DNA from: Bilabrum cf. latius
Taxonomy: Eukaryota
DNA length: 41,789 nucleotides
Direction of reading: 5' to 3'
Assembly: GCA_965178125.1 (NCBI GenBank)
Contig: OZ237776.1
Location: 496,001-537,789 of the forward strand
The notes beneath the pieces were generated by a model. The model ran no database searches, was not told the DNA's origin, and saw only the letters and a list, made by a program, of their open reading frames with translations. Below, piece by piece: positions 1 through 41,789 of this stretch. Position 1 is the stretch's first letter. Each line of letters opens with the position of its first letter. The translations under genes and the position numbers were made by a program.

Positions 1-462
1 TCCTCGCTGCGGCCCGTGCTGGAGAACTCCGACTACGACAGCCCCCCGCTGCAGGGCGCTGCAGTGGTCGGCGAGGACCTCCACGGAAGGAGGGCAGTCG
101 GGGCCAGCAATCCGGGGAGCGGGCTCGTGCCCGGCCCGTCCACTGGCCTCGTGTGGAAGAACAGCACCTTCTCGCAGTGGCCCAAGGACGATGACATGGG
201 ATACAGCATCCGCACGGACAGGTGGAGGTACACCCGTTGGGTGGGCTTCGATTCCCACGCGCGGCAGGGCAAGTGGGACGAGCTCAAGGGGGAGGAGCTG
301 TACGACCAGCAGGAGGATCCCTTCGAGATCACCAACAGGGCGGGGGACCCCGCGGTGGCAGCCAAGAAGGCGGAGCTGTTCGAGCAGCTCAAGCTCGGGT
401 GGAGGGCTGCCCTGCCCAAGCAAGCGGGGGCAGCGCGTGATGGTGCGCGCAAGCAGGTCTGA
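1..462 (+). CDS. Sulfatase, iduronate-2-sulfatase-like, C-terminal part (5' truncated by window)
   Basis: Frame open from base 1. FSQWP...MGYSIRTDRWRYTRWVGFD...ELYD...DPFEITN resembles the IDS/choline-sulfatase C-terminal region (MGYSIRT..YRYT.WV.F, ELY...DP.E..N). Ends TGA 460-462. Confidence 0.8.
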   Translation, partial: SSLRPVLENSDYDSPPLQGAAVVGEDLHGRRAVGASNPGSGLVPGPSTGLVWKNSTFSQWPKDDDMGYSIRTDRWRYTRWVGFDSHARQGKWDELKGEELYDQQEDPFEITNRAGDPAVAAKKAELFEQLKLGWRAALPKQAGAARDGARKQV

Positions 463-634
463 TGCGCTTTCCGGAATTGGCCTGGAGTTGTGCAACCAGT
501 CCTGTCCGGGGCCACTACGATGGGGCAGCAGCGGTCAATGTAGAGCATGCAAGGCATGAAGGTGGCTTTCAGGCGAACCCAGTCCGACCCGGTTGTAGCA
601 AGTACAACGTATTCAGTATACACACAGCTCGCAG

Positions 635-3600
635 TCAACCCCGACCCGGGTCGTCGTCCCCCACACCCGAGGCGGGCTGCTCCTGGGCTGCCCCCGCATT
701 CGATCTACCTTCATCCATCCCCGCAGTTGCATCACCGCTCGCCAGTCGCTGCTCCCTTGCCCTGAGCGCCTCCTGGAACTGCGGGTTGGACTCCTCCATC
801 TGCAGGTAGGCTTGTCCCTGCACCACGGTCCAGTACCTGTACTCGGGCCGGTTCCTCTGCTCCCAGTCCATCTCGCCCTCGAGGGACCGGATGATGCGCG
901 CCTGCTCCAGCACCCACCTGTCCTCGGCCTGCTCCGCGATGTTCTGAAAGGTGTCGCTCATGCTGGCGATCAGAGTGTTGAGCAGCAGCACCGACATGAC
1001 CACCACATACCCCAGCAGGAGCCCCTGCGCCAGGGCACCCGTCACCACCCTCAGAGCGCCTGATACACTCCACACGCCCGCCCCTGCCCCCTCATCCCCA
1101 CCCACACCCGCATCTGCACCCCCTGCCAGCCAGTCCACTTCCTCATCAGCGCTCTCAGCCAGGTCATAGTCCTGCAGCACGATGCGGAAGGACTTGTACA
1201 GCCGCTGCATGAAGAGCCCTCCGCCACCCCCCAGCGCGGGGTCGTGCAGAGAGAAGGACGCCTGCGTATACCCCATGAGCAGGACCACCATGAGTACGCC
1301 GAAGCGGGCCACGTCCTTGCGCAGCATCTCATAGATTGCCACCACATAAGGCCCAGTTTCTGGAAAGCCAAGAACGAAAAACAACGTGCGGCCCCACGCG
1401 CCCAGCGCAGCACCAGTCAGTAGCAGCCGAAAGACGAGCCCAGCCAGCTCGGAATCGCCAAGCCATCCCCCGGCCACAGGCCCTGCATCTGCCCTGCACC
1501 ACGCCTCCTGCTCTTGCGACAAACCAGGGAACACACTTCCCGCCAACCAGCCCAGTGGCCGCCCCACATCCGAGCATACCACCGCCTGTGGCTGTCTCAG
1601 CACCGCCAGCACCGCCAGTGCCGCCACGCACGAGCTGAAGGTCAGTGCCGTGGTGTTCTCCACGAACCCAGCCCCCCTCACACTCAGGTACTCCCGGATG
1701 CCCTCCCTCGCCACCTCCATGCCCTCCACCATCAGCTTGGACAGAGCAAACGCAGTGACCCAGCCCTCCAGCAGCCCGGGGGCAACGCACGCCAGCCGGG
1801 CACGGAAATACGAATCTCCCACCAGCGTCAGCAGCACTGCGCTGGGCCCCGATCCATCGCTGGCACTCGGCGGATCCATCACTCGCAGGGCGCAGCTGTG
1901 CGTGTCCCGCAGCACCCAGGCGTGCTGTTCCCTGGCACCCACCGCCGAGGCCAGCACGATCCCCAGCACGAAGCACAGCAGCATCACTGCATGCTCCACG
2001 AACCGGCGCCCGAATACTTCCTGCGCGAACCGCTGCCACTTCTGCCGCAGCACCTCCCGCACCCTTGGCAGCCGCAGCATGTCCAGCCACTCCGCCTCGA
2101 TGATCAGATCCAGCGCGCTGCGGAACTCGATCCGGGGTGGGGGGCCCGAGTTACCACCGGGGGCGGGTTTCAAGCCTGTCGGTGTCGTTGGCTCCTCCGG
2201 CGCGCCACCAGGCGACGCTCCAACTGGACCGTTCGATTCATTCGATTTATTCGTTCCTCGGCTCGCTGCCGTGCTGCTGGCCCCAGACTCTTTGGATCCA
2301 AGCGGCGGACTGCCCGAATGCACTGCGTCCGCCCCTGCGTGCGGGAGCGCCTCCTGCCTCGCCCTGAGCACTAGCCTCGCCTCTCTCACCGCCCTCGCCT
2401 CCTCCTCGAACTGTTCCCTGGCCCTCCCCCGGTCCCCCTGCACCCCGTCCAGCTCTGCCAGGGGGTACAGCACGCACGATACAGGCCCGTAGGTCCAGAA
2501 TACCTGGCAGCTCGAGTCCAAGATGTGCTAGAACATGCGGCGCCGCCCGAGTCTGGCTGCCAGCTGCAGCGGAGTGAGTCCGGCTGCGCTCCTGACCCTC
2601 TCCAGAGGTGGGCGGCCCATGCGCCTGCCGGGGTCGTGCTCGTGCAGCTCCCTCCAGAGGTCACTCACGTAGTCGTACATGGCCGGCAGGTCGTGCACCA
2701 CGGCCATGTGCAGCGCGTGGTGGCCCATCACATCGGCCACGTACATGTCGCTAGAGGGGCACATGGCCAGCGCGCGCACCAGGGCGGGCTGGCAGGTGCT
2801 CACCTGCGGATGGGAAGGGGGCAGGGTGGTCAGGGGCATTGAAGGGCACCGGTAGCAGCTGTGACGAAGGAGCATGATTGCATACCATGCTACTATGTCC
2901 ATGCACCGGCAACTAAAGGCCGTACCAGCGTACAATTCGCAAGAGTACGGTGCACCACTGGCAGCACCGCGGCGAGACTCACAGCGAAAAGCAGCGGGAG
3001 CTCTCCGTAGTAGCAGCTCGTGTCTCTGTCAGCCGTGAAGCGCTGCCATGAAAAGAAGCTACCTATCGCTCTGTAATGCAGCAACCGAGGTGCTTGCTAC
3101 GCCAGCATTCGGACCCGCTACAAGTCACCGTTAACGACTGCGATGTGAAGAACGGTCTCCCCCTCGTACGCCGAGGGTCGACCATCGCCTGGTCCTACAT
3201 ATTGAGCCTCAACAAGCTTTGGAAACATGCCAACTAGCCAGTCAGCCAATTCGTAGTGCTTGTGCTCATGAAAAAGATAGCACAGGTGCAGAGCAGAAGC
3301 CCCGACAGCATCACGTTTTTTGTTGAAGAATTCCTCAGCATCGTCTCCTTGCTCGCTAGCAACAGCTTTTAACGCCTCGAGGTCCCCTTCTTTAACAATA
3401 TTCACGAGCGTCCCCTTCGTATGGGCGCTTGAAGCCTGAGCATCGTTGCGAAGCTTGGATTCCTGCATAAATGACACCGTGCGATGAAGCATCGGTGGAG
3501 CTTCTGCAGCAACTGTAGAAATTCCATCTGAACCAATCTACGTTTCCTTTGTAGCCATGCTGATTCGTGCTGCGTAGCAAGAACAGCTGTGATCAAAAGT

Positions 3601-3757
3601 CGAAAGATGAAGATCTAGTGATCGACTCACAGCAGAAGCTGCGGGCGAAGGGGCTGCACCTTTGGGCAGCGGCAGCGGCAGAGCGGGAGCCCGCGCCTCT
3701 TCTATCGGGCGCTTTCACGACGCCAGCTGTTGTCTATGGAAGCTGTGGTGGCATCAT
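635..3757 (-). CDS. TRPV-like ankyrin-repeat cation channel (spliced; in-frame TAG codons; 5' exon structure uncertain)
   Basis: Ankyrin motifs YEGETVLHIAVVN, YYGELPLLFA, GHHALHMAV, GLTPLQLAA; WTYGP motif; hydrophobic TM segments; S6 LLLNTLIASMSDTF and TRP-box-like WVLEQARII. GT-AG intron 2982..2804 (GCT|GTGAGT...CGCAG|GTG, phase 0) joins LPLLFA to VSTCQP. In-frame TAG at 3118-3120, 3097-3099, 2528-2530. Tentative first exon from ATG 3757/3754 with intron ~3630..3587; the link from there to the 3118..3492 frame is not resolved. Stop TGA 635-637. Confidence 0.8.
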
Positions 3758-4088
3758 CGAAGCGACCCACTGCAGGCGGCACCACAGCTGCAGTCACGCT
3801 GGCCACCGCTATGGCAGACCAGGATGGTGCGGAGGGCTATGATCAGGGGAGCGGGGAGGGTACCGAGGGGGACGTGGACGTGCCAGTCGTGCGGGGGGCG
3901 GGGGTCTATCTACCCTTGAGCTGTCTGTGGAGGAGCTGAGGCAGCTGCAGAGGGAGCTTCGCCCTTCACTGTGGCACGAACAGCCAACTCCAATGCCACA
4001 GTGTGGGCCGGCAAGTTCATGCCGGCTCTTGAACCTCCGTAAAGCGGAATACCTTGCGCAACAGATTAGTGAGATCATATCAAAAGAG

Positions 4089-4282
4089 AATCAGTATGCT
4101 TCAACTCAACCCACCAGGTCCCTTGCGGCCTTGCCACGGTCGCCCACCCCAACAATCAGTATGCTTCAACTCAACCCACCAGGTCCCTTGCGGCCTTGCC
4201 ACGGTCGCCCACCCCAACAATCAGTATGCTTCAACTCAACCCACCAGGTCCCTTGCGGCCTTGCCACGGTCACCCACCCCAA
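4089..4282. repeat. 65-bp tandem repeat, about 3 near-identical copies
   Basis: TCAGTATGCTTCAACTCAACCCACCAGG... recurs at 4091, 4156 and 4221. It overlaps the last codons and the TGA of the large minus-strand gene. Confidence 0.95.
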
Positions 4283-7200
4283 GCAGCAGGTCAAATACCA
4301 GCTCCGTCACCCCGCTATTCCGCAGCTTGTTGCACCGTAGGTCGCCGCCACCCCTCAAAGAAACCATGTCGTGCAGCTGCATCACTGCCGAAGTGGTAGC
4401 CACGTGCTGCCGCTCGCCCATCTCCCTCAGCTGCCAGATCCTGTTCTCGTACGAGCACTCCACGTCAAGCGGCCCCAGCACCCCGTCATCGTCCAGGTCC
4501 AGGACTCGGAACCAGTACTCCACGGATGTGTTCCCCATGCGGTCCTGCATTGCCTGCCGCAGCCACACGAAGTCCTCGAAGTTCAGGCACCCCGCCCTGC
4601 CGCTGGACAGAGTCCTCGCCCTGCCAGCAAACACCCGCTCCAGCGCATTGCTGCACACCGGCACGATCCGCTGCCCCGCGGGCAGAGAGCCGACAGTGCC
4701 CTCCTGGTCGTCTGCCCCGCCACCAGGTGGGTTGGAGGGACCGCCTCCCCCTCCATTGCCGCCTGCCCCGTGCAGAGGCAGCACCGGGCCCGGGCTGACC
4801 GCGTGCACAAGCTGCTGTAGAGTGAACGTGCCTCTGTTGGCCCGATCCACGGCCCTGTAGAGCGCCTCCACGTCCCTGAAGTATCGAACAGAGAAGGGCA
4901 ACACGTTGTCAGTTGTGGTGACGCTGCACATGAGGAAGGCATCCACCAGGTTGGACGAGCACAGCTCCTTCATCGTGACCCGAGAAGTGGTCAGCCCGTG
5001 CAGCGAGGCAAACAGAGACGCCAGCACGCAGGCCACGTACCTGGACCGGGCCACAGGGTCGCCCCGAATGCCGGACAGGTCGGGGTGCCTGTCCACGAGC
5101 GACTCAACCGCGGGTCTCAGATCGTCCATGTACACGTGGCTCCCGGCGGGGTGGTCGCACACCAGGCCCCCGGACCACACCACGTCATCCGCCCTGTCTC
5201 CTTGCCCCGGATCCTCCTCTGCACCAATGGGACTCCCCTGGCCAGAGTCAGAGCCAGAGTCAGCCCCGGCAGCCCACCGCGTCGCAGCGATCTCGCCCGA
5301 GGACTCGCGCCTGCGCCCGTGCTCGCTCTGTCTCCGCAATTCCAGCTCCGGATCCTGTAGGGGGGCAGAGTCTGGGTGCGGGGAAGGTGCCTCCAGCTCA
5401 AAGGCAGCTGGCAGCCGCGATTTGTCCCCGGGGGCAGGCAGGCCCGGGTACAGCTGGCCCCCGTTGCACCTCGCCGTCGAGGCCTCCACGAGCTCGTCCG
5501 CAGTAAGACCCAGCTGGCTCGTTTCTCCTCCGCCAGAAGAGCCATGTTCCCTCCGCCGCGAGCTCGAAGTCACGGACCCGCGCTTGTCTTTCCGGCCGCC
5601 CTCGCCCTTGTTCCGAACAGTCGTCCCGGCGGGAATCTGACCAGCTGCCACTAGCGTGCGGGTGACCGTGTCGGCGTTGTACACGTTCACAGGGGGCGGG
5701 ATCCACCCGTACGTCACCTGCGCGTCCACTTCGGGGAGGTTCCGCTCGCGGCGCCAGGCTTCCAGGTTCCGCACAGCCAGTCTAGAGGCGCCGCGCATGT
5801 GCCTTGCCTAGTTCCGCTTTGCCTCCCGTCCCAGCCGCATCCGCAGCAGATCCATCGGGCAAAACCCGTGTGCCGCCCCAAGAGAGGCCAGCTGGGCCGC
5901 TGCTGCCTCAGTTGGGTTGCGATACCGCTTGGACTGGAACGCCCGCCCACCGCTATCTTGCGCGGTTGGCGACAAAAGGCCCCCAGAGGTCGCGCGGGTG
6001 CCTCGGTCGTAGTCTGGGTCGTTCTCGTCTGCCAGTCCAATGACCATGTCACTCGTCACAGCGTCATCCGTGGTAGCCGACCGACCATCTCCTTTCCGCA
6101 AGCGGTCCATCTGGCCTACTTTTGCCCTGCCCTGTCCCCGTGCCTGATCCTGTCCCTGATCCAGGTAATCCACGGATGTCTCCAGCGAGCCATCTCCAAA
6201 GGACCCCTCGGCGCCATCCCCGTCCTCCTCCCCGGGCCCAAGATCTCCCGGCCCTGCGCTGCTGATGCTGCCGGAAGACGGCGACCGAGAGCTGTCTCCC
6301 CCACTGTCCCGGCTCTCCTTGCGCATGCTCGAGCGGCCCCGGACGGGGCTGGACTCGCCGGGCAGGGGCGTCTCCCCACCTGACGACTGCCTATCACCCA
6401 GCCCCCCAGGAGCCATGCTTGTCACTCGCAGGTGCACCTCCTTGAGACCAAGAGCGTCGGAGGCAGTTGAATTCCGCGCGTGGGGGACTTTGATCCCGAG
6501 CTTTGCGGCAACCGAAGAGCCGAGCACGCCCGCGGTCTCTTCCCCCGCTTCAGCGCAGCTGGGCAACACCGACACGGCCTTGCTGTCCCCATACATTTCG
6601 AGCAAGAGGGCCTTCAGCATCTCCCTCTGGCTGCTAGGCAGCTTCCGGATGCTGACCTTTGCCGACGAGTCGCCCTGTCCCTTGCCCTCCCCTGCAGAGC
6701 GAGACACAGCACCATGCTCCAGACCGCCTAGCAGCCAGTGCCCGATCGCATCAGATGCATGGGAAAAACTGGCCCCAGAGTCCAGCTGTGGCTATCCACC
6801 GATCCCAGCCACGAACAGCCCGCCTGACACTCTCGCAGACCCGCCTCCTGCAGCGCCCCGCGGTCCCCGGCACCAGTGCGCCAGGGACGGGTCCTGCACG
6901 CGCATCACCCCAGTCACTGCTCGAGGCCCGAACGCATCGGGTTCGAAGGCAGAGTCGATAGGACCCCGCTCTGTCGAAGGCCCGGCTGCTACAGACCGGA
7001 CGGGCTGCTGGCTTGGGCGCAAGACCACGGAGTCGTCCCAGTCCGAGGGTGGGTCAGCCTGCAGCACGCCGTCCAGAGACCTCCGCGCTAGGTCAAACGG
7101 GGTCCTTGGTGGCACCTCCCTGCTTCCTACTTGCGTCGGTGCAGGCACGGCCAGCAGTGCCCTGGGCACCACGCTGCTGCCTAGGCGCGACCGGGGGACG

Positions 7201-10200
7201 CTGTCATCCTCTCCACCCCCCTGCAACCGCGTGTCCTCGTGGTGGCCGTACACAGCCGATTGAATCTTCTGCTGCCGGCGCCGCGCAGGTACCCGGAGAG
7301 GCACCGGGACTAGCCCCGTCTCGCTAGTGCCGCCCCCAGCTGAGCCTGAGGCATCCAACCGGTCAGGCTTACGAGCCATCGCTGCAAGCTGCGCCGCATG
7401 CGAGTACACAGGAGGGCGCGTTCGAGGCTACAAGCGCCTCGGGGGGCATGGGTGACGCAGGAGCATCGTGACCCCGAGTCTGCGAGGCTCTTGCATCACG
7501 CCCGGGTGCCAGATCCTGAGGAACATCGCCATCGAGACCATGGGCCGGGGCCCGGGGGCCACCTCCCACGGCTCGGGGATCGCCCCGATCTGGGGACTCC
7601 AGCAACCAAAGTCCAGAGCAAATCCCCCGCTGGCATACCTAAACGCCCTGCGCCCGACGGTAGACCAGGCAAGGGGCCGTAGGGGATGCGACTGTGACAC
7701 GTGCCCTCTCTGCGTGGAAGACGACTGCCCCATCGCGTGCCTGCGGTCCTTGCACACTGGGCCCATGCCCAGCGGAACCACATCGGGCGCCGCGCCCACG
7801 ATTGCCGCCTGCAGGCGGGCCACAGAGGATGCCGATGAGTGTGACGAGTAAGAGTCTGTCGAGCCAGCGCTGTCCAAGCCACGACGCAGGCCGGCGATAT
7901 TCCGCAGAGCAGTGGCAGCGCGTTTCTCCCAGCGAATTGCCAGCCGCAGAGCCTCCTTGACGCCTGCTGCGGCCCTGCGCTTGTGTCCCGTGCTCATCGG
8001 AAGGGCAGGCACCTGGTCACCCATGCCAGGCGAGCTTGAGGAAGAAGTCTACTGCTTCCTGACAGCGTTGTGCGAGTCTCGGCTGGACCCCGGCCCGCCT
8101 ACTGGCCCTTCGTGTCGCTTGGAGGACGAGGTGGCACCGCCGCGTCCCATTGCGCCGGCAACTCCCTGCCCCAGCACGCCCTCTCTCGCCCGCCAGGTGT
8201 ACCAGTCCACGTCACGCTCCCGCAGCACTCCTCTCCGCAGGGCCTCGGAAACATACACTCGTTCCTGCTCCCACAGCCGCTGGTCCCGGCGCATGGCGCG
8301 GCGAGTACCACTACTGATCCTGGCTGCAGGCGCCTCCAGAGGCACCTCGTCCTCGCGCCTGGCGTCACCCACCCTGTACCCGAACTGCTTGCGCATGTCC
8401 TCGTCTTCCTTCTCCTCGCTCCTGCCGCTGGGTGCTCCTCGCCGACTACCACTCGCACCATTGCGGCGCATGCGATTCTGGGTCTTGGCTCGCAAGTCCC
8501 CACGCAGCTCGCGCAGTAGGGCTCGCAGACACCACGCGCGGCAGGCGCGGTGGTATGACGCGCGCGCAGGCCATATCCGCTGAGACTCGTATGCAACCGC
8601 GTGCTCCGCGAGGTGCATGAGCACTGGGGCCGCGTCCCTAAGCAAGGCAGCGACCAGGCGGGCGCATGAACGACCGCCAACCGGGCTATCACGACTACTC
8701 CCCACATCTGCGGCAGCTCTACACAGGATTTTGACGAAGATTTCCGCATACACTGCAGAGGCAGCTGCTTCTGCCGCGGCAGCCTGATGCGCATCTGCCC
8801 ATGCCTGATGGATCGCACGGAGGTGCAGCACAGGTCCAAAGTAGGCTGGCAGCCGGCAGTGGTCTCTCACCAGGTGCTTCCAGTTGCGGCCATCTGCTCG
8901 GCGCAGCTGTCCCTCAGACCTTAGAGCGTGGTTGGGGCGCCAGCTAGACAGCTGCAGGCCGCGCCAGTCCAGGCCTGCCAGCTGCATCGCCCGTAGCACA
9001 CCGCCTTGACCGCCGCCCAGCACTGGCGCGGCCCCAGCGCTGGCAACTTCCCTAGATGCGGCCCCGGCCCCACTCGTAGCATCAGAGGGTGCCATGAACT
9101 GAGAGGCAGCTGTGGTCACCGGACATGGCACGCTGTTGGATCCAGTGGCCATTCCATCCGGTGCCCCAGCCACAGCGCCGTCAACAGGCATGCCGAGCAC
9201 CGAGGTGCCGCTGGCTACCGCCTCAAATGCCGCGCCTCGTGCAGCAGCAGCCGCAGTGCTGGACAGCTGAGGGTACGGCGGCTGCGTCACCGACATGGGC
9301 GGTGCCGCCGTCCGGCACATGGAGCCCATGGTCCTCTCAATGCCGCTCTGCAGCCTGCGCTCGAAGGGAGGCCCATCCTTGGCCCCTGGCTTGCGGGCCG
9401 TGGCAGAGGTCCTCGAAAGGGACCGCCCCTCGGTGGCGTGCTCTGGTCCATCGCCCGCGTCTCGGCTCGATCCCACATCCAGACCAGTGGAAGAGTCACT
9501 CGGGTACACGTGTCCGTCCTGCGACACAGGCACCCTGCTGCGGGCCCCGAATACGGCCCTCGTGGTGGACGGCACCCGTTCTTTCCAGCGGAGGTACACG
9601 TCCATCGGCAAACGGGGATACAAGCACGCTCGAGCGGCCGCCAGCGCGGCCCGGTGTGCGGTCACCATGGCCAGCAGCAGGCAATGGGGCTAGGCCTCCA
9701 TGCCGGCCTAGCCCTCCCCATCGGCCCCCATCCCGCCCAAGCTCTAGCTTTTCATGTCAAGCCCGAACTGGCCGGGCCATGCGCCGCGCAGCAGCTCCGC
9801 GAGGGTGGCCATGGCAGGGAACACTAGAGCGGGGGCCTGGACCGCCCGCATGCTCTGCAGAGAGAAAGAAGCCGCGCCCAGAGCATCCGCAGGCTGCAGC
9901 CGACTGTGCTCCGGTGTTGTCCGCATCCAGGCGGGGGGGGCATCCCCAGTCGCCGTATTCCGCTCGAGGGCATCACGTGCGCCTGCCGCTGACGAGTCCG
10001 TGCCTCTGTGAGCCGAGCCACGCATGCGGCGCCGCGCATCTTTCAGAATCCATGCCTTCCGGAACCTGGACCCCGAGCCCCCATCATCCAGTCCCACGGG
10101 CGGCTACAAAGCATCGTCAGGGGACACCAGCCGCTTCTGCTGAAGGGTCAGTTCGCCCTTGTCTGCCTTGGCGATGCTCGCGCTCACTGGAGAGTCCTCG

Positions 10201-12617
10201 CGGCCTGGAGCATTCGGAGGATCTACGGCTCGGCTGCGCATGATCAGAGCGCATTCGTCACCCGCTACACGCGCGTCTACCCGCGCCAAGGCCTCGGCAG
10301 TCCCACAGAGATCGGCCCCACGCACCTTCCTGACCATCTGCTTCATGGTCGCATAGGCGGCCTGGCCTGCAGCTCTGGGATCTTCCTCCATTGCTACTAC
10401 AGCCTTGCTTGCCTTGCTCGTCTTGCCTGCTGCGCTAACCTCGCTGCTGCCCTGAATGTCGTCCTCACTGTCGTGCTTGCCCTCGCCGTCCCCCACGCTC
10501 TCCTCCGCTGCCTCCTTGCCCTGCAACCCCACCGCTACCTCCCGCCTCGCCGCCAGCGTGCCCTTTACCGCCCTGACCCTCAGCTCACCAGAGCGCCGCG
10601 CCAGCCCCGATAGCAGGTCCATCACCAGCGGCCAGTGAGTCGCAAAGGCGCACACAATCGCCTCCCCATCAGCGGGCAAAGCCCCGATCATGCTCTGGTA
10701 GGCCTCCCGGTCACCGGCGGGTGCCTGCCTCATCCGTTGTGCGTTGGCCCCCCGCCTGCTCTGCACCACCCCTGCGACCACGGCTGGCCTGGCGCTGGGC
10801 AGGGTGGGGTGCGGCACGTGGTGTAGCATGGGGCACGGAGGCGGGCGCAGCTCCGATCGGATGTCGCGCGAGGCATCTTTTACCCAGGCCGTGCCCTGTG
10901 TCAGTGACGCCTGCACCCAGGCAGCAATCGATTCTGGATCCGTCGGCATCGGAGTCTCGTCCGCATCCCCGCGCTGGGCCTTGCGCCTGACTTGCGCTGC
11001 AGCTGGCGCTGCCACACTGGAGGAGGCAGAGGCGGTCAGGTCCTGCCCGTCAGCACCAGCCCCTGCAGTCGATGTGTGCCGTGAGGCTCGCGGGGAGGAC
11101 TGGGCCGTGCTCTCGTGGTCTGCAAGAGAGCGGGGCATGCGAGCAGGGGACCGGACGGTCAAACTCTGCGCAAAGTGCCCGCTTGCACCCATGGAATTAA
11201 CGCCAGATGCGTCCCCGACAGCTCTCGCTGCAGCCCTGCGAACCCGATCCATCTCTCCTACAGAATCCGGGTCGGAAGGACCGGTGGCATGCGGGCGTTG
11301 GTGCCGCGTGGGCCCAGGGGGTAGACCTTCCAACGAGCTGGGGCCGGTGCTTGGCTCTCTAGCCGGCGGCGCGCCGATGCTGCCCTTGATCGCAGGGCCC
11401 CGCACCAGCCCGCCAAGACTTGCTGCTGCCCTGTCTCTGTCCGGACCTTCCTCCTCACCCTCCTCCTCTCCAATGACTTCGTCCACATCGGACCCATCCC
11501 TCTCTTGGCTAGCTCCTATCGTGGCATCCGCGCCATCCCCAGATACTGCCGCAGAAGCAGCTGCGGCCAGAGGTGGAGACAGGGGCGGGGACTCTCCTCT
11601 CCACGACCTCCGCCTGCTCTCCGCTTTGGACAGAGAGGCGCGCGTGGGGAAGTAGTCCTCCGGGGGAGCGGGCAAGCCCAGGCCGACTCCTGTAGAGCGG
11701 GCGGCCTGCGGGCTGGGAGGGGCGCCACTGGGGCTGCTCGGTCCAGATGTGATTGCACTCGTCACACTTTCCTTGCTATCGAGCCAGGCCAGCGCCTCCT
11801 CGTCGGCACTCACCTCTGAAGGTCCATAACTCTAGCCAGGAGTAGTGGGGGACTCATCACCAGTGCCCGGGGGCGTGCCGTTCCCGCTGCTGCTACCCTC
11901 TGTGGCGCGCGGACTTTGCGACCGGGGCGAAGAACCGCTCCCGCTTCCACTCCCGCTTCCCGTGCCCTCCGCCTGCCTCAGCTCTGAGCCTCCCCGGGAC
12001 ATGGAGCTGGGACTCAGCCCAGGGAGAACCCTGTCCCCGGTACTTGCAGCCCGCTGCAGCGCACGGGCGCGAGCACGGGCGTTGGCTCCCGCGCGCCCTC
12101 TACCCACATAGCCCGCACCCCTGGCCCCCTGCCCCCTCTGAGCACCCGAGGCCCCCGCCGCGGAGGGGAACATGCCCGCCATGCCTGCCTGGGTCCGAGG
12201 CATGGCGGGGCGGCCACCGAGGGCCATCGCGCTCACCGATGCACTCGTCATACTACCACCGCTACGGGCCTGATTGGACTCAGGGGTTGCCGCTGGGTCC
12301 GCACTCCGGTGCCCCTGCCCCCGCGCAGCATCACCCGCAGCACCTGTCACCCCGGTGGACCCCAGGCTGCGGGGCCGCATGGACGGGGAGGGGGTGTGCG
12401 GCTTGGTGGGCTGGAACACCGCGTCCCGTGCATATGCAGCCGCGGCTGCATGTGCCGTGGCCTCTTCCACGGAGGATCTGCTCGAGTGCCTCGTGCCGTC
12501 GGACCTGCTGCTTCGCACCGATGAGGCACGCGAGCCTGCACCGGGGTCGGTTCGGCTGGCACGGGCAGATGAGCTGTCTGAACCGTCCGACTCCGCTCTG
12601 CTGTTCTAATTCTCCAT
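4236..12617 (-). CDS. Very large (~2,793 aa if unspliced) protein with C-terminal PP2A regulatory subunit B'' (PR72/PPP2R3-like) EF-hand region; 10 in-frame TAG codons
   Basis: ORFs 11832..12518, 10104..11813, 9744..10097, 8049..9668, 7428..8024, 6792..7409, 5808..6707 and 4236..5798 share one frame. I read the gaps codon by codon and the only stops are TAG (12606, 11832, 10104, 9744, 9708, 9690, 8049, 7428, 6792, 5808). Start ACA-ATG-G at 12617 (MEN*NSRAESDGSDSSS). C-terminal part resembles B'' motifs: DDLRPAVESLVDRHPDL, NFEDFVWL, TSVEYWFRVLDLDDDGVL. Stop TGA 4236-4238. Confidence 0.75.
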
Positions 12618-13989
12618 TGTTCGCGACAGTCTGGCCCCTGCAGCCCGCAACACGCCGCCTAGTCGGTCCTATTCGTCCCTTGCTGCCATTTGGTCCGCAA
12701 GTCTCTGACGGGTCCACCAGTCACCCAATGACAAGACTGTTCACCACAGAGTGTGAACGTCTCCGCTGCACTCAAATGTCTTTCTGGTGTAACACGCGTA
12801 CCTGCGTCAAAACTGAGAGCGAAGGGGGGCCAGAGAAAAGATCACAGTCAGTAGTCTCGCCGTCCAGGTCGACAAATCCCCGGTGTCAATGCAGACTTTC
12901 ACTTGCCGACTAACAATTCACAATTGTTTTAAATACACTCAGTCCTTGATGCTTCGAAATGCTCTCCAGATCAGCGGGACGATCGCATGATTCCAGCACC
13001 CACACAGCTGTTGCATCACTACACCCTATCCAGGCCTTGCAATCCCTACAGGGACTCAATTGATATTAAACCAGCTGATGCAAATCACAGGATTGTATGG
13101 AATTGATGGTGGGCGGTGATTCCACTGGTAGACTGTGAACACACCATGCACCAAGATCTCCAAAACAAGCCGCCAGAACACAAGCGCCGACGGCCCGGCA
13201 TGTAGGGTCTCTGCCTACTAGTTGCCAGATCACGCTCAAGTAGCTGGCAAGATCAACCCGACATAAAAACCATTTGCCAATCGTCAATCCCACCAGCATT
13301 CTAGCCCGGCCCTCACGGCCAAATTAGCATGAAAGACCGAATTCTCCGGTCAGCAGTGAACAATCGAGCACATTAACTCCGAGAAAGCAAACCCAATGGG
13401 ACTTTTCTCACGTATTTCTTCTCCAGCCGCAACTACAAGGCTAGCGTGTGTCGCGATACAGGCTTTCAATCAGTACTGGTCGGGTACAGCGCGTGAGTAC
13501 CGCTTAGTGGTCTGGAAAAATGCAATTGCTCCGACGATACAGATTACCCGAATCTCAGCCGCCTCCGCTCTCTCGGACAGGTGCTGATAGCTCACAAGGT
13601 ATTTGGAACAGTGTCCATTGCAACGGAACCAACAGAAGAAGCCGCGCAAAAGTTGGTCGCAAAGGAGCGTGCCAGAAATTCGTTGGAGCTGAGCGCCATG
13701 CCTCAGCCAGCTGCAAACGGGTGAAATGTCGAGAGTTTGACTACTCGATGGACCGTATGAGGGCCGGGCCCGAAAAGCTTGATTCCATGTTGAACGAATG
13801 GTGATAGTCCACCCTCATATAATATCGATAGTTGTTTGCCGTTTGCCCTGTCGGGAGAATCCAAGCTGAGACACCGGACGGCCGTGGAAGCGAAGGGTGC
13901 ACCCTCCCGGTGTTCAACTGCAACGACTAATTTCAAACCAGGACATGATGCAGCCCCGCATGCAGATAATAGTGCCCAGCAGTCTCCAT

Positions 13990-16228
13990 TCATTCCTCAG
14001 GCTTGGATTCACCGGCATCCGCAGCCTTCCCGGCATCATCGGCTGCCTTGCGCAGAGTCTGTACCTCAGCCTCCAACGCCTCCTTGGCGGCTCGAAGGGC
14101 CGCCGTCTCTGCTGCAAGTTTTCCCTTCAGCTCGTCGTTCTCTGCCTTGAGGCGCGCGATCTCTGCCTGCGCCGCCTTCAGCGCGTCATCCCCTCCAGCG
14201 CCCGCCCCGCTGGCTGCCCCCGCCGCGGGATCCGCCGCCTTGGCAGCCTTGGCCTGCTCTCGCTCCGCGGCGGCCTTTTTGGCGGACTCGTCCACCACGA
14301 ATCCGGAGCTGCTGCCGGCTCCCGCTCCGCCGGTGGCAGCCCCCGCGCCCGCTCCCTCAGCGGGCTTCATGGAGGCCCGCTTTGGCTTGGCGTCCTTCCC
14401 GCCGAACCACTGGTCCGCAGTGAGGGCAGGGGCTGCCGACACGCAGTCGGGGTACAGATCCGACTGGAAGGACTCGCTCTTGCGAGGCACCTGGAAGGAG
14501 ATGCTGCGGACCTTCTTGTTCTCCAGCTTGATGAAGCGGGCGATCTCGGTCTTGCCCACGTCCACGGCGCGGCGAGGCACCTGGGCGATCCCCTTGGCCG
14601 CGTCTCCCATCGACATGCGGGCGATCTCGTAGGGCTTGGACTTGGGGATTTCCCAGTACCGGATGGAGGCGTCTCCCTTGGCTGCCACGTACAGGATGCA
14701 CGAGGCTTCGTCGTAGAAAGGCATCATCACACCCGCGGCCGAGTCCAGCTCCTGGTGGATGACGGGCGCGTCCAGACCCTTGCCCAGGTCCCACACCTTG
14801 AACTCGCGGCCCGACATGCGGGTGAACCCGGTGGTCACGAAGCGGTTCTTGCCGTCCATCCAGCACATGTTCACGGTCTTGGCACCCTCGTGCGCCGTGA
14901 AGGTCTGCTGGGCCTTCTTGGCGTCAGCCCTCGGGTCCCAGAGCCGGATCTTCTTGTCCTTGCTCGAGGTCAGCAGCAGCTTGCCGTCCTCGCTCCAGCA
15001 CAAGTTGGCGATGGGCTTGCTGTGACCAGTGATCGTGACTGCGTCAGTCAGCTTGGCCACGTCCCACAGCCGCACGGTGTTGTCTCTGGATGTGGATGCC
15101 AGCGTCTGGTTGGCGCAGGGGTGCCACTTGAGCAGCATCGTGTCCTTGTCGTGGCCCTTGAGCACCGCCGAGGGCTCCTCGATGTTCTCCTGCACGCCAC
15201 CCTCGGGGATGCTCCACACCATCACCGTAGCGTCCCTAGAGGTCGATGCCAGCAAGGAGTCGTTGTGTGGTGAAAAGGCCGTGTCCTGCACCTGCGCGCG
15301 GTGGCCCGTCAGCATGGGCACGTCGGGGCGCACCTTGCCGCTGCCGTCCACCGGCTGCACCAAAATCTTGCCGCCGCCGCCACGAGCCGCCACTGCCCAG
15401 TACAGTGCGCTTGCGCTGATCATGTACTGGTCGCCTGCGAATGTTGAACTATCCGAGGGCAGCAAGACGACGTGAACGTGCTGAGTGCATTCGTACGGAC
15501 GGAGCACGTGATACGATTGGCTCACCGGTACCGGAGGCCAGCTGAATATCAAGATATGAGGATTCATCTTTGGACTCGGTTCCAAAAACGTGCCTGCGAT
15601 GGTGTATTTGTTGATGAAGGGGTTGAAGGTCAAATCTTGCTGCTGCTGCTACTGCAAACTCTCGTTGATAGCCAACTACAAAGCAGCATCCAACCAAGCA
15701 TTCCAAGAGCACGGTACAGAGCTTAATATGCACTTATGCTGTGCACGCACATAAACAGGGAAGCTTCCTTTGCATATTCAGGTGTTCTTGGGCACTGAAC
15801 GGTACAGGGACGAGCTACGGATGAACACAAGCATGCCTTGCTTTAGGCCCGAGGTTTGCCATCCGTCAATCCTGAAAGTATTATAATGCTGGAACACTGG
15901 GAATTCCAGATTTGCTTCACGCTCTACATACACTAAAACAAATGCAAGCCACAACGTGGGCGATCCTGACGCATTCCATGTTGAAGCTGTCACATCAAGC
16001 AACACGTGCGGCACAAATTCAGTCAGAGCACAAATATGTATCTATGCAAATGGCATGCCTTGCCATTGGCACATTTGCAGGCGACATATCCACAACTAGC
16101 CCTGAGTCCAGATTTCGCCAAGCGAGCCAAAAACCGCAGATTATCATGCCCTTGCCACGAATGTAATCAGAACTTGCGGTCAAATATTCTCACCTGTAGC
16201 TACTCTACCTAACGAATCGGGAGGACAT
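13990..16228 (-). CDS. Coronin (WD40 actin-binding protein with C-terminal coiled coil), 3 exons, 515 aa, in-frame TAG at codon 8
   Basis: Exons 16228..16194, 15593..15526, 15434..13990 with GT-AG junctions and matching phases (total 1548 nt). N-terminus MSSRFVR*SSYRHVFG matches the coronin signature (VRQSKFRHVFG). WD repeats, KGDASIRYWEI, VPRKSESFQSDLYPD, coiled-coil tail. Stop TGA. Confidence 0.92.
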
Positions 16229-16747
16229 GCCTCAACGAGCTATCAAGTCGGACTAAGCAGTACAAAACGATTCTGCTCAGTCACGCAATTCCTTGCCTCA
16301 AATGCAGAATCTGTGAAGTAGCGTGCACTCTGCAACTCAGGGCGGCCAGGGCGGCACACGCAGCGAGGCGCCAGCTGGCGCCCCAGGCCCTTTCATGTCG
16401 CATTGGGGCATCACCGACTGGTTCTACTAGTCATGACAGTCGCTTCGACTACGCGAGATCCACAGGTGCACTGAGTGAGCAAGTGCGGAGTGGGCTTTTC
16501 TAAACGATACAAATCACAGGCATATCGCGGTGGAATATTCGATGGACAAGAAGCTAGTAGCACGCACATAGCACCAGCACTTGGCCGGTGGCACAACACC
16601 GCAGCCCGTGGCCGCCTTGCCTCCCGTGGTAAGGCCGTGCCCACACCGTGCTGTGGTTCAACCTTGTTGCGCCGTGTGCGCCTGCATGCATGTCAAAACA
16701 GTTCTTTCCTACGGCTTAGCACCGTCTCGGTCCCTAGATCGGATCGA

Positions 16748-17546
16748 TCACTCGTAGATCTGGGTCTCGATGCACGACGTGTACTCGGCGCAGCCCTCGG
16801 GGAACCACAGGCCGATCTCCTTGACGGCATCCTCGGGCACAGCGCTGGCGTGCACGGTGTTGCGGCCGATGTCCACGCAGAAGTCGCCGCGGATGGTGCC
16901 GGGCGTGGCGTCAGCGGGGTTGGTGGCGCCCACCAGCGAGCGGCCAGCCTTGATGGCTCCGAGGCCCTCCCACACCATGGCGAACACGGGGCCGGAGGTC
17001 ACGTACTCCACCAGAGAGGGGAAGAACCTGCAAGTAACGAACGTGTTGAGCGTGTGGCAAAGATAACTCGCGCCTGATGCACATCGTTAAGCACAACATC
17101 ATTTCGCGTGACAATCCTGAAATCAGCTCACTTCTTCTCGGTCAACTCAGAGTAATGCTCGGATAGGAGTTCCTTAGTGGCAGTGGTCATCTTCGCGGCG
17201 ACCAGCTTAAGTCCCTTCTGCGAAACAAAGAAGAGAAAGCCTGTCGGTACTGCAAGGGTGCCTAGCTGTTCATTTGCAGCTATGATGCACATAGAATCGG
17301 CAGTAAATCAGCCCTAAAAATACAATTTCGTAGCGCACACAATTTAATAGAACAGTTTGCAGCTAATGTTGACATCCAAGTTTTCATTGCTGCAGATCGA
17401 AGCCCCGACTAGCTCGAACAACAGGTGTTGCATGAACTCACCCGCTCGAAGCGGCCGATGATCTCGCCGACAAGACCACGCTGCACACCATCGGGCTTGA
17501 TCATCACATAAGTACGCTCCTTCTTGGCATCAGCAGCGGCGGCCAT
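16748..17546 (-). CDS. NDK: Nucleoside diphosphate kinase, 3 exons, 156 aa
   Basis: Exons 17546..17442 ([26 protein letters not shown]), 17217..17132 and 17027..16748 ([27 protein letters not shown]), GT-AG introns, total 471 nt. Stop TGA. Confidence 0.95.
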
Positions 17547-17691
17547 CTTTCACTAGTTGTCCTTAAGATGCGTTGGGGAGGGCCGATGCCGCAGCCAACT
17601 CCAAGGTTCGCTGGGGTTCTCTCCGAACTAAGCACATCTAAACGCGGCGCAACGAAGACTTCAAAAAGCATTCAAGCAATATAAAACGTCG

Positions 17692-18113
17692 CCCACACAC
17701 CTTCGACCCATGCAGCCATCCGCGGCCCTCGCCGCACATCTCGACACACCCTCGCCTTACCCTAACCCTAACCTATGCAGCCATCCGCGACCCTCGCCAC
17801 ACATCGGCCGCACACCCTCGCCCCTTGCAGCCATCCGCGGCCCTCGCCACACATCGGCCGCACATCCTCGACCCATGCAGCCATCCGCGGCCCTCGCCAC
17901 ACATCGGCCGCACACCCTCGCCCCTTGCAGCCATCCGCGGCCCTCGCCACACATCGGCCGCACACCCTCGCCCCTTGCAGCCATCCGCGGCCCTCGCCAC
18001 ACATCGGCCGCACACCCTCGCCCCATGCAGCCATCCGCGGCCCTCGCCACACATCGGCCGCACACTCTCGCCCCTTGCAGCCATCCGCGACCCTCGCCAC
18101 ACATCGGCCGCAC
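17692..18113. repeat. Subtelomeric 50-bp C-rich minisatellite (~8 copies)
   Basis: TGCAGCCATCC anchors at 17711, 17777, 17827, 17877, 17927, 17977, 18027, 18077. Runs directly into TTAGGG. Confidence 0.95.
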
Positions 18114-39582: not shown

Positions 39583-39779
39583 GGTTAGGGTTAGGGTTAG
39601 GGTTAGGGTTAGGGTTAGGGTTAGGGTTAGGGTTAGGGTTAGGGTTAGGGTTAGGGTTAGGGTTAGCGCAGGTGTGGGGGGCAACTGTCGGGATTTGGAT
39701 ATTTGAAAAAGCAAAGAGGGGTGCCGTTGCGTTTTTCTGGCCTGTGCCGGGCTTGGTGGGCAGGGTGCGAGGGCGCAAT

Positions 39780-39786
39780 GAGGAGG
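39780..39786 (+). promoter_or_regulatory. Shine-Dalgarno sequence
   Basis: GAGGAGG 5 nt upstream of ATG 39792. Confidence 0.8.
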
Positions 39787-39791
39787 GGACG

Positions 39792-40562
39792 ATGGAACGG
39801 GTTGTGGTCGAGATCGAGGCGGGGGTCGCGCAAGTGCGCCTGAACCGTCCTGACAAGAAGAACGCGGTGGATATTGCCATGGCCGAAGCGATTGTCGCGG
39901 CGGGGCAGGGCCTGCGCGACGCGGATATTCGCGCGGTGGTGCTGTCGGGGGCAGGGGGCGCGTTTTGTGCGGGCCTCGATGTGATGAGTTTCGCGCAACT
40001 GGCCCAACCGGACATGCTGGCGCGGTTCATGGCGCGCAGCCATGACGACTGTAATCTGATGCAAGAGGTCGCGATGATCTGGCAGCGGCTCGACGTGCCG
40101 GTGATCGCGGCCTTGCAGGGGGTGGCCTATGGCGCCGGGTTTCAGATGGCGCTGGGCGCGGATATTCGGATCGCGGCCCCGGACACGAAGCTGGCGATCA
40201 TGGAGATGAAATGGGGGCTGATCCCCGATATGGGCGGGATGGTGTTGCTGCCACGCCTGACGCGGTCGGACGTTATTCGGCGCATGACCTATACCGCGCG
40301 GCCCATTGATGGGGAGCAGGCCGAACGCTGGGGGCTGGTAACGGAGCTTGCCGAAGATTCGGTTGCGGCGGCCACGCAGATGGCGGCAGAGATCGCTGGC
40401 AAAGGGCCGAACGCGATCAAGGCCGCCAAGCGCCTGATCGGACTGGCCGAGACGGCGGGGCGCGCGGAGGTATTGCTGGCTGAGAGCGCCGAGCAAAAGG
40501 CCCTGATCGGGCAGGCCGAGCAGATGGGCATCATCGCGGCCAATATGGCGCGCGGGGGCTGA
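39792..40562 (+). CDS. Bacterial enoyl-CoA hydratase/isomerase (crotonase family), 256 aa
   Basis: LNRPDKKNA, AFCAGLD, PVIAALQGVAYGAG, MEMKWGLIPDMGG motifs; SD-supported start; no introns. Confidence 0.92.
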   Translation: MERVVVEIEAGVAQVRLNRPDKKNAVDIAMAEAIVAAGQGLRDADIRAVVLSGAGGAFCAGLDVMSFAQLAQPDMLARFMARSHDDCNLMQEVAMIWQRLDVPVIAALQGVAYGAGFQMALGADIRIAAPDTKLAIMEMKWGLIPDMGGMVLLPRLTRSDVIRRMTYTARPIDGEQAERWGLVTELAEDSVAAATQMAAEIAGKGPNAIKAAKRLIGLAETAGRAEVLLAESAEQKALIGQAEQMGIIAANMARGG

Positions 40563-40573
40563 GAGAACAGACA

Positions 40574-40608
40574 AAAGCCCCCCAACGTGCTGCCAAGTGG
40601 GGGGCTTT
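40574..40608. terminator. Probable bidirectional rho-independent terminator
   Basis: Perfect 11-bp inverted repeat AAAGCCCCCCA / TGGGGGGCTTT with a 13-nt loop between two convergent bacterial genes. Confidence 0.75.
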
Positions 40609-40691
40609 CAAAAGAGCTTGATCGCGCGTGTCACGATCCGCGCCGAAAGGAAGATGCCTCCGGCGGGGATATTTAGGAAAGCAAAGAGCGG

Positions 40692-41789
40692 CTAGCCGAT
40701 CTCGGCCAAGCGGGCGAGGGCGGCTTTGAGTTTGGCCTCCTCGGCCTCTTTCTGGGCCAGCAGCTCGCGGTTCTCGGCCACGACCTCATCCGGCGCGCTC
40801 GCGACGAATTTGGGGTTGTTGAGACGGCCCCTGAGGCCCCCTAGGTCCTTGGCGAGCTTGCCCATGGCCTTTTCCAGCCGCGCCTTTTCCTCGTCTACGT
40901 CGATCAGATCGGCGAGCGGCAAGCAGAAGGTGGCGCCCTCGACTGCGATGGTGACGCTGCCTTTGGGCAGGGTGTCCACCGGGGTCAGGCTTTCGATGCG
41001 CGCGAGGCGTTTGATCATCGTCTCGTTGTTGGTCCAGGCGGTTTGGCCGGCCTCGCTCAGCTCAAGGCACTGCATATGGACCTTGAGGCCCACAGGCACG
41101 TGCATTTCTCCGCGTGCGGAGCGGACGTTTTCGATCAGGCTGATCACCCAGTTCATCTCGCGGCTCGCGGCCTCGTCGGTCAGATCGGCGGCGGCATATG
41201 TCGGCCAATCGCCATGCACGAGCATTTTCTGGCGGCTCGCAAGGGTGCCCCAAAGCTCTTCGGTGATGAACGGCATAAACGGATGCGCCATCAGCAAGCA
41301 CTGGTCGAGCACCCATGCCATGGTCTGGCGCGTTTCCTCTTTTTGCGCGTCGGTGCCGTCGAGCAGCAGGGGCTTCGACAGCTCCACATACCAATCGCAG
41401 ACCGTGCCCCACACGAAGCTGTAAAGCGCGCTGGCGGCGTCGTTGAAGCGGTAGGCGTGGAGCGCCTCGTCGATGACCTCGCGCGTTTTCGCGGTCTCGC
41501 CGATGATCCAGCGGTTGACCGTCTCGGTGCAGGCGTCGGGCTTGGTGGTCGCGCCCTCATAGGCACCGTTCATTTCGGCAAACCGGCAGGCGTTCCACAG
41601 CTTCGTGCCGAAGTTGCGATAGCCTGCGATGCGGTCTTTGCTGAGCTTGAGAACCCCGCCGATGGAGGCCATGGAGGCGTTGGTAAACCGCAGCGCATCG
41701 GCCCCGTATTCGTCAACGATCTCAAGCGGGTCGATGACGTTGCCGGTGGTCTTGGACATTTTCTTGCCCTTCTCGTCGCGCACGAGCTG
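40692..41789 (-). CDS. valS: Valyl-tRNA synthetase, C-terminal part (5' truncated by window)
   Basis: KMSKT (KMSKS-type) motif, [38 protein letters not shown]-terminal coiled coil with [11 protein letters not shown]. Ends at TAG 40692-40694. Confidence 0.96.

What the first reader, a model, noticed from the sequence alone, without database searches (positions are those of the whole stretch)
635..17546. UAG and UAA may be decoupled: many sense TAG, no TAA as either sense or stop
Seen: over roughly 4,500 codons there are 14-15 sense TAG and no in-frame TAA, and no gene ends in TAA. Inference: either UAA remains a rare stop (the unusual UAG-only code) or UAA=Gln is simply rare under strong GC3 bias. 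The window alone cannot decide; the first case would be the more remarkable.
Basis: inference. Interest (0 to 1): 0.7.

Follow-up and report, generated by a model that had tools for sequence, protein, structure and literature searches.

The report
Sense TAG (glutamine) in protist genes
The genes in this GC-rich stretch of a marine protist chromosome read the stop codon TAG as glutamine and all end in TGA, but this much sequence is too little to say whether the sister codon TAA is still a stop or is just a very rare glutamine codon.

Summary
In five gene models (window 1-17546; about 4,555 sense codons) I count 16 in-frame TAG, 0 in-frame TAA and 0 in-frame TGA. All 5 stops are TGA.

TAG is a real sense codon:
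- The 2,817-codon giant ORF carries 11 TAG and no TGA, where about 48 TGA are expected from the off-frame rate.
- Contigs that behave as RNA keep the TAGs unchanged and unspliced.
- Three comparisons pair TAG with glutamine. The coronin of a near-identical strain has Q at codon 8. A 75%-identical relative (L001) has CAG there, and it has TAG where the window has CAG inside an invariant block.

The decoupling idea is not decided. CAA is only 10.6% of CAR codons, so 0.4-2.9 TAA would be expected among 16 TAG. P(0) is 0.07-0.17, or 0.66 if TTA:TTG is the guide. Five of five TGA stops is equally weak evidence. No tRNA gene, eRF1 gene or further genome was available.

My odds: TAA is a rare glutamine codon 0.6; TAA is still a stop 0.2-0.25; TAA is unused about 0.1.

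UAG=Gln with UAA as stop is already known, for example in Iotanema spirale. Even the bolder reading would therefore be a new member of a known kind. The organism is unidentified.

The parts
4236..12689 (-). Giant single-exon gene (2,817 aa, stop TGA at 4236-4238). It has 11 sense TAG codons at 12669-71, 12606-08, 11832-34, 10104-06, 9744-46, 9708-10, 9690-92, 8049-51, 7428-30, 6792-94 and 5808-10. Its only Pfam hit is EF-hand_13 near the C-terminus.
   Evidence: ORF and TAG positions. Pfam EF-hand_13 E 4.6e-9. 0 TGA against about 48 expected. Run X5 has a colinear piece 4242-12116 (7,875 letters, 0 differences); pieces 12154-12799 (X5) and 12385-12799 (X6) cover the two 5' TAGs. L001 carries a homologue of the C-terminus, 205 of 275 aligned columns identical.
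12800..13409 (-). 610-nt GT..AG intron in the 5' UTR of the giant gene.
   Evidence: Joint 12799/13410 in X5 and X6. The upstream in-frame TGA and the first ATG at 12689 are shown.
635..3558 (-). TRPV-like cation channel gene (ankyrin repeats plus an ion-transport domain). Exon 1 is 2983-3558, the predicted intron is 2804-2982 and exon 2 is 635-2803. Stop TGA at 635-637. Four sense TAG at 3538-40, 3118-20, 3097-99 and 2528-30.
   Evidence: Pfam Ank_2/Ank_4 and Ion_trans. PDB hits Inactive, TRPV3 and TRPV6, E 2e-24 to 1e-17. TAG positions. The intron is inferred from GTGAGT..CAG and from restored TRPV homology across the junction; no contig joint was reported for it. The start codon is the first ATG of the ORF and is inferred.
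13990..16228 (-). Coronin gene (515 aa) with exons 16193-16228, 15525-15592 and 13990-15433. Stop TGA at 13990-13992. One sense TAG at codon 8 (16205-16207).
   Evidence: WD40 and WD40_4 hits. Joints 15433/15525 (X5, X6, X7) and 15592/16193 (X6, X7). The spliced model equals P0243 at 510 of 515 positions, with Q opposite the TAG. L001 has CAG at that codon.
16748..17546 (-). Nucleoside diphosphate kinase gene (156 aa) with exons 17442-17546, 17130-17217 and 16748-17025. Stop TGA at 16748-16750. No TAG.
   Evidence: Joints 17025/17130 and 17217/17442 and a poly(T) loose end at 16533. Translation. NDK homologues (PF00334).
1..462 (+). C-terminal 153 codons of a sulfatase-like gene that runs off the window. 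Stop TGA at 460-462. No TAG.
   Evidence: ORF. Weak Pfam SGSH_C hit (E 0.005, below the curated cutoff). Stop codon read. Pieces of X5 and X7 cover 1-610/615.

Best explanation
This is nuclear DNA of a GC-rich, intron-poor marine protist whose cytoplasmic translation reads UAG as glutamine and, in every gene seen, terminates at UGA.

Shown here: TAG is a frequent sense codon, 16 of 176 glutamine codons (9%). It is kept in transcripts and it swaps with CAG between strains and relatives.

Inferred: a tRNA-Gln with a stop-reading anticodon and an eRF1 that no longer recognises UAG.

The lack of TAA is most likely compositional. With GC3 of 0.72-0.88, and A-ending twofold codons at 3-18% of their pair, a TAA that shares TAG's meaning (a table-6-type code) would be expected only 0.4-2.9 times in this sample. 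I therefore take UAA to be most probably a rare glutamine codon, with UGA the sole stop. The data do not show that UAG and UAA are decoupled.
For: - The giant ORF is open for 2,817 codons, with 11 TAG and 0 TGA against about 48 expected.
- GC3 stays above GC2 in every long segment between the TAGs except codons 28-285 (GC2 0.77, GC3 0.71).
- Runs X5-X7 give 5 GT..AG joints and a poly(T) end, so they behave as RNA. Their pieces carry 12 of the 16 TAGs (giant and coronin) colinear with the DNA, and the call lists no other letters.
- TAG pairs with Gln three times. P0243 has Q at coronin codon 8. L001 has CAG at the same codon. L001 has TAG where the window has CAG (4671-4673), inside the invariant block GTVGSLPAGQRIVPVCSNALERVFAGR.
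- In coronin homologues that column holds S, Q or A.
- 5 of 5 stops here and 1 of 1 in L001 are TGA.
- CAA:CAG is 17:143 and TTA:TTG is 1:38, so P(0 TAA) is 0.07-0.66.
- By the passages read, joint UAR reassignment is the commoner pattern: at least 13 cases (PMC5304391), listed again in PMC11687900.
Against: - No in-frame TAA was seen, so the claim that UAA=Gln has no positive evidence here. With the pooled NAA:NAG ratio (0.153), P(0) is 0.07, which leans mildly towards avoidance of TAA.
- No tRNA gene and no eRF1 gene could be examined.
- The TRPV-like intron and start codon are inferred. Cover of its four TAGs by RNA-like contigs is not shown piece by piece: X5 has depth 4.6-5.1 in those bins, but the pieces were not listed.
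- The tool labels X5 'RNA? (probably DNA)'.
- The prior for joint reassignment comes from papers, not from this organism.
Confidence: 0.6

Rival explanations
1. UAG-only code: UAG=Gln while UAA is kept as a minor stop beside UGA, the type known from Iotanema spirale. A tRNA-Gln(CUA), one mutation away from the dominant CUG isoacceptor of a CAG-rich genome, reads UAG only. eRF1 has lost UAG but keeps UAA and UGA.
For: 0 in-frame TAA in about 4,555 sense codons against 16 TAG. Off-frame TAA does occur within the same coding sequences, 12 times. With the pooled NAA:NAG ratio P(0) is 0.07. In a genome with CAG:CAA of 143:17, a CUA anticodon is the more accessible suppressor (inference). Precedents exist (PMC5304391 and PMC11687900, passages read).
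Against: No gene ends in TAA: 0 of 5 here and 0 of 1 in L001. No in-frame TAA lies within 50 codons downstream of any of the five TGA stops. Iotanema and the rhizarian exLh use UAA as the main stop (PMC5304391), unlike here. GC3 bias alone explains the absence of TAA at P = 0.17.
Confidence: 0.22
2. UAA is effectively unassigned. GC pressure has removed it from both coding sequences and stop sites, so it is neither a working stop nor a used sense codon.
For: TAA is absent as a sense codon and as a stop in all 5 gene models and in L001's two coding pieces. TAA is the rarest of the three triplets throughout 635-17546: 27 on the coding strand, against 113 TAG and 239 TGA.
Against: The sample is far too small to show absence. 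12 off-frame TAA in coding sequence and 15 in non-coding DNA show that the triplet is not excluded by mutation bias alone. Truly unassigned codons are rare in nuclear genomes (general knowledge).
Confidence: 0.1
3. The TAGs are not decoded as a standard sense codon. They would instead be real stops in pseudogenes, sites of low-level readthrough, edited in the mRNA, or hidden in unrecognised in-frame introns.
For: Most of the 11 TAGs of the giant gene lie in low-complexity, poorly conserved sequence. No protein-level data exist.
Against: The frame stays free of TGA for 2,817 codons. The contigs carry the TAGs unspliced, and the call lists no other letters. One TAG is codon 8 of a conserved coronin whose full-length product exists in a sister strain with Q there. 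The relative L001 has its own TAG at an invariant Gln. None of the 5 genes uses TAG as its stop.
Confidence: 0.03

Closest known systems
Table-6-type nuclear code (UAA and UAG = Gln, UGA the only stop): many ciliates, ulvophycean green algae, hexamitin diplomonads, the oxymonad Streblomastix, the aphelid Amoeboaphelidium protococcarum (as listed in passages of PMC11687900 and PMC5304391)
   Same: TAG is read as Gln and every observed stop is TGA.
   Different: No in-frame TAA was seen (0 of about 4,555 sense codons). The genome is GC-rich (57-67%), whereas, from recall, the classic cases are mostly AT-rich and use TAA heavily. The lineage appears to be none of those listed: TTAGGG arrays, long conventional chromosome DNA, and coronin at most 45% identical to anything else apart from one near-identical protein (P0002, 99%).
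UAG=Gln with UAA kept as stop: Iotanema spirale (PMC5304391), Protocruzia tuzeti and two phyllopharyngean ciliate lineages (PMC11687900); passages read
   Same: TAG = Gln and no sense TAA.
   Different: In Iotanema UAA is the predominant stop. Here 0 of 5 stops are TAA (0 of 6 with L001). The defining feature, TAA acting as a terminator, is not observed.
Rhizarian exLh, UAG=Leu with UAA/UGA stops (PMC5304391, passages read)
   Same: Only UAG is found in frame.
   Different: The amino acid differs. Here TAG pairs with CAG/Gln in 3 of 3 comparisons, and the TRPV-like sites are polar surface positions.
Amoebophrya sp. ex Karlodinium veneficum, with all three stops read contextually (PMC12005148 passages; PMC6394959 abstract only)
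   Same: A marine protist with GT/AG introns and in-frame TAG thought to be Gln.
   Different: There TAA and TGA also occur in frame in about half of the genes. Here 0 TGA and 0 TAA occur in about 4,555 sense codons.

Membership tests
Nuclear code with UAG = Gln (either variant) | In-frame TAG inside expressed, conserved coding sequence | tested here: met
   16 TAG in 3 of 5 gene models. 12 of them lie on listed colinear contig pieces from runs that show splicing.
Nuclear code with UAG = Gln (either variant) | TAG aligns with Gln in homologues | tested here: met
   3 of 3 informative comparisons: P0243 has Q at coronin codon 8, L001 has CAG at the same codon, and L001 has TAG opposite the window's CAG 4671-4673. 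Only two distinct sites are involved.
Nuclear code with UAG = Gln (either variant) | TAG not used as a terminator | tested here: met
   0 of 5 stops here and 0 of 1 in L001 are TAG. The sample is small. The TAG stop at 40692-40694 belongs to bacterial DNA.
Nuclear code with UAG = Gln (either variant) | Cognate suppressor tRNA-Gln (CUA and/or UUA anticodon) and altered eRF1 | not testable with these tools
   No tRNA gene in the window or in L001-L003. No eRF1 gene in the window. No genome is held.
Table 6 type (UAA also = Gln) | In-frame TAA at Gln positions | tested here: inconclusive
   0 found, with 0.4-2.9 expected; P(0) = 0.07-0.66.
UAG-only type (UAA = stop; Iotanema type, NCBI table 15 as written) | Genes that terminate at TAA | tested here: inconclusive
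   0 of 5 genes here and 0 of 1 in L001 end in TAA. This is too few to exclude a minor stop.

The most novel reading that the evidence does not exclude
A GC-rich marine protist from a lineage not known for code changes has reassigned only UAG (to Gln). UAA would be left as a rarely used stop or as an unassigned codon. This would be an independent case of UAG/UAA decoupling outside ciliates and metamonads, driven by GC pressure through a tRNA-Gln(CUA) derived from the dominant CUG isoacceptor.
Probability: 0.3. Interest if true: 0.6.

Novelty: new member of a known kind. Interest (0 to 1): 0.5.

Why it matters
Stop-codon reassignments in nuclear genomes are rare, and each independent case tests ideas on how codes change.

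Here a GC-rich, TGA-terminating genome carries sense TAG at 9% of its glutamine codons. From recall, that composition is the reverse of the AT-rich classic cases. It fits a route in which GC pressure first depletes TAA and TAG stops, and a CUG-to-CUA change in a tRNA-Gln then captures TAG.

If UAA proved to be still a stop or unused, this would add a non-ciliate, non-metamonad example of UAG/UAA decoupling.

There is also a practical point. Standard-code gene callers will fragment this organism's genes. The giant ORF falls into pieces of 198-569 aa under table 11, and the database coronin P0002 starts at Met-39, downstream of the TAG.

Tried and rejected
- Whole genome: none is held.
- tRNA and Rfam scans of the window found nothing. 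No tRNA in L001-L003.
- Sequencing runs: no listed holder is on record as RNA. I treated X5-X7 as RNA-like because of their joints and the poly(T) end. Parts without cover, and the low cover of the TRPV-like gene, are not used as evidence.
- More DNA of the organism or its relatives:
  - The metagenome scan with coronin gave one relative (L001) and two irrelevant coiled-coil matches, L002 and L003.
  - A 30-mer of the satellite found nothing in genome contigs.
  - Two viral-contig scans found nothing.
  - The Dinoroseobacter MAG behind L004 has no (TTAGGG)5.
- Protein searches:
  - An 851-aa piece of the giant protein gave no hit at E <= 1e-5.
  - The coronin and NDK searches gave no close named relative. 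The best named NDK hit is Bicosoecida sp. ms1 at 64%, too weak for placement.
  - The Atlas gave only generic coronin clusters.
- Identity of the organism: I considered an aphelid, Amoebophrya, ulvophytes, labyrinthulomycetes and diplonemids. None could be tested.
- Literature: seven full-text searches found no paper describing sense UAG in a GC-rich non-ciliate marine protist. The library lacks most subscription journals, so this does not prove that none is in print.
- Ideas dropped:
  - TAG = Leu (exLh type) was rejected on the three Gln pairings.
  - Tandem stops downstream of TGA were inspected and are uninformative.
  - Using strain polymorphism at CAA codons to detect TAA was dropped, because about 0.1 events would be expected.
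Full report
WHAT THE WINDOW IS

The window has three parts.
- Bases 1-17.7 kb are 57-67% GC and carry eukaryotic genes.
- 17.7-39.7 kb is a higher-order repeat. Eight copies of a 155-bp satellite are followed by about 93 TTAGGG units, with a period near 1,851 bp. There are longer TTAGGG blocks of 199, 127 and 124 units at the left.
- 39,665-41,789 is bacterial. It is 99.8% identical over 2,127 bp to a Dinoroseobacter sp. MAG contig (L004). It is joined directly to the last TTAGGG block, so the contig end is chimeric. Its valyl-tRNA synthetase gene ends in TAG as an ordinary bacterial stop and has no bearing on the finding.

No genome is held for the window.

GENE MODELS

Contigs of four public runs were laid on 1-17,800. 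Run X1 is colinear and even in depth, like DNA. Runs X5, X6 and X7 give five joints with minus-strand GT..AG ends: 12800-13409, 15434-15524, 15593-16192, 17026-17129 and 17218-17441. They also give a poly(T) loose end at 16533. I therefore treat them as RNA-derived, although the tool labels them only 'RNA?' and labels X5 'probably DNA'.

With these joints, ORFs and homology I obtain five models.
- Nucleoside diphosphate kinase: 17546..16748, 3 exons, 156 aa.
- Coronin: 16228..13990, 3 exons, 515 aa.
- Giant single-exon gene: 12689..4236, 2,817 aa, with a 5' UTR intron. Its only Pfam hit is EF-hand_13, E 4.6e-9.
- TRPV-like channel: 3558..635. It has ankyrin repeats plus Ion_trans, and PDB hits to Inactive, TRPV3 and TRPV6 with E down to 2e-24. 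Its single intron (2804-2982) is inferred from GTGAGT..CAG and from restored homology across the junction.
- Plus-strand C-terminus of a sulfatase-like gene: 1..462.

These rest.

The coronin model is confirmed independently. P0243 is a 515-aa protein from a 1,602-nt Logan contig. It equals the model at 510 of 515 positions.

THE OBSERVATION

Over 4,561 codon positions (5 stops and one extra 5' codon included) there are 16 in-frame TAG. The giant gene has 11, the TRPV-like gene 4 and coronin 1. There are no in-frame TAA and no in-frame TGA. All five stops are TGA.

Four other TAGs that look in-frame in raw ORFs lie in introns.

IS TAG REALLY SENSE?

1. Off-frame TGA occurs at 0.0171 per codon within these coding sequences. 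The giant frame should hold about 48 TGA and holds none, while it holds 11 TAG. In-frame TAG (16) is close to the off-frame counts of 24 and 30.
2. X5's piece 4242-12116 (7,875 letters, no differences, no gaps) carries nine of the giant gene's TAGs. Pieces 12154-12799 (X5) and 12385-12799 (X6) carry the other two. X5's piece 15525-16222 carries the coronin TAG. The table of other letters is empty, so there is no sign of editing.
3. The coronin TAG is codon 8 (MSSRFVR-TAG-SSYRHVFG). In homologues that column holds S, Q or A.

WHICH AMINO ACID?

Three comparisons all give glutamine.
- P0243, from a near-identical strain, has Q at codon 8. A standard-code ORF caller would otherwise have started at Met-39, as in P0002.
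- L001 is a 3.4-kb metagenome contig from a relative (coronin 75% identical, 56.5% GC). It has CAG at that codon.
- L001 has TAG where the window has CAG (4671-4673), inside the invariant block GTVGSLPAGQRIVPVCSNALERVFAGR of the giant protein's C-terminal domain.

TAG and CAG differ by a single transition. Glutamine codons make up about 3.9% of codons here. The TRPV-like TAGs sit at polar, variable positions (R, K or Q in TRPV homologues), which argues against leucine.

IS TAA DECOUPLED?

The window cannot say.
- CAA:CAG is 17:143 (0.106), GAA:GAG is 45:209, AAA:AAG is 22:113 and TTA:TTG is 1:38.
- If TAA shared TAG's meaning and the same A/G bias, 0.4-2.9 TAA would be expected. P(0) is 0.17 with the CAR ratio, 0.07 with pooled NAR and 0.66 with TTR.
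- If TAA were a stop, the only test is stop usage. 0 of 5 genes here and 0 of 1 in L001 end in TAA.
- From recall, TAA's share of TAA-plus-TGA stops in GC-rich eukaryotes is 0.2-0.6. Six of six TGA would then have a probability of roughly 0.004-0.26.

The two likelihoods are of the same order, with a slight lean to 'sense but rare'.

The passages I read report at least 13 joint UAR changes (PMC5304391). They report fewer UAG-only cases: Iotanema, the rhizarian exLh, Scotinosphaera, Protocruzia and the phyllopharyngean lineages (PMC5304391, PMC11687900).

My odds:
- UAA is a rare Gln codon: about 0.6.
- UAA is still a stop: 0.2-0.25.
- UAA is unused or something else: about 0.1.
- TAG is not truly sense: about 0.03.

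No tRNA gene or eRF1 gene was available, and every attempt to reach more of the organism's DNA failed.

MECHANISM (INFERRED)

Termination at UAG must be lost by eRF1, and UAG must be read by a tRNA-Gln.
- In a genome where CAG outnumbers CAA 8:1, a CUG-to-CUA anticodon change is the shortest route. It would read UAG only.
- A UUA anticodon would read both UAA and UAG.

Which of these exists here is the decisive unknown.

COMPARISON AND NOVELTY

The code is either the common UAR=Gln type with TAA nearly squeezed out by GC pressure, or the rarer UAG-only Gln type. Both are known.

The organism is unidentified.
- It is marine by association with the Dinoroseobacter DNA.
- It has TTAGGG repeats and few introns.
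- Apart from one near-identical database protein (P0002, 99%), its coronin is at most 45% identical to any other database protein.
- The best named NDK hit is a bicosoecid at 64%.

Seven literature searches found no description of such a code in a GC-rich non-ciliate marine protist. The library is incomplete. I rate the finding as a new member of a known kind, of moderate interest.

Noticed in passing
window 39665-41789: Bacterial DNA, 99.8% identical over 2,127 bp to a Dinoroseobacter sp. MAG contig. It holds the 3' part of a valyl-tRNA synthetase gene that ends in TAG at 40692-40694. It abuts the last TTAGGG block directly, so the contig end looks like a chimeric join of a protist chromosome end and a co-cultured or co-sampled bacterium.
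   Followed up: yes
window 17776-39666: About 22 kb of higher-order repeat. A 50-bp repeat (17776-18113) comes first, followed by blocks of 8 x 155-bp satellite alternating with 91-199 TTAGGG units. The period is about 1,851 bp in the regular part, and one 30-mer occurs 88 times exactly. This is unusually long interstitial or subtelomeric telomere-repeat architecture.
   Followed up: partly
window 16205-16207 versus protein P0243: Coronin codon 8 is TAG in the window but Q (so presumably CAR) in a 99%-identical database protein. This is a TAG/CAR polymorphism between very close strains or alleles.
   Followed up: yes
window 4236-12689: A 2,817-aa single-exon protein, mostly Ala/Gly/Ser/Arg-rich low-complexity sequence. 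Only its C-terminal part of about 280 aa is conserved in the relative L001 (205 of 275 aligned columns identical). That part contains an EF-hand_13 (PP2A B''-like) domain. A database search with its last 851 aa found nothing.
   Followed up: partly
window 4089-4282: A 65-bp tandem repeat (3 copies, 99% matches) that starts inside the giant gene's last codons and runs past its TGA stop. Contigs of the short-read runs break here, at 4242.
   Followed up: no
window 15593-16192: The 600-nt coronin intron is skipped in X6 and X7 but retained in X5's contig (15525-16222). This could be intron retention or unspliced precursor.
   Followed up: no
window 2424, 3958, 5738, 7581, 7853 (loose ends of run X1): Contigs of the DNA-like run diverge from the window at several points inside the TRPV-like and giant genes. 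This suggests paralogous copies, heterozygous variants or repeats of parts of this region elsewhere in the genome.
   Followed up: no
L001 1-3424: In the relative, the C-terminus of the giant-protein homologue lies directly upstream of coronin on the same strand. In the window coronin lies upstream of the giant gene. L001's coronin also lacks the window's 91-nt intron. Gene order and intron content therefore differ between relatives whose coronins are 75% identical.
   Followed up: partly
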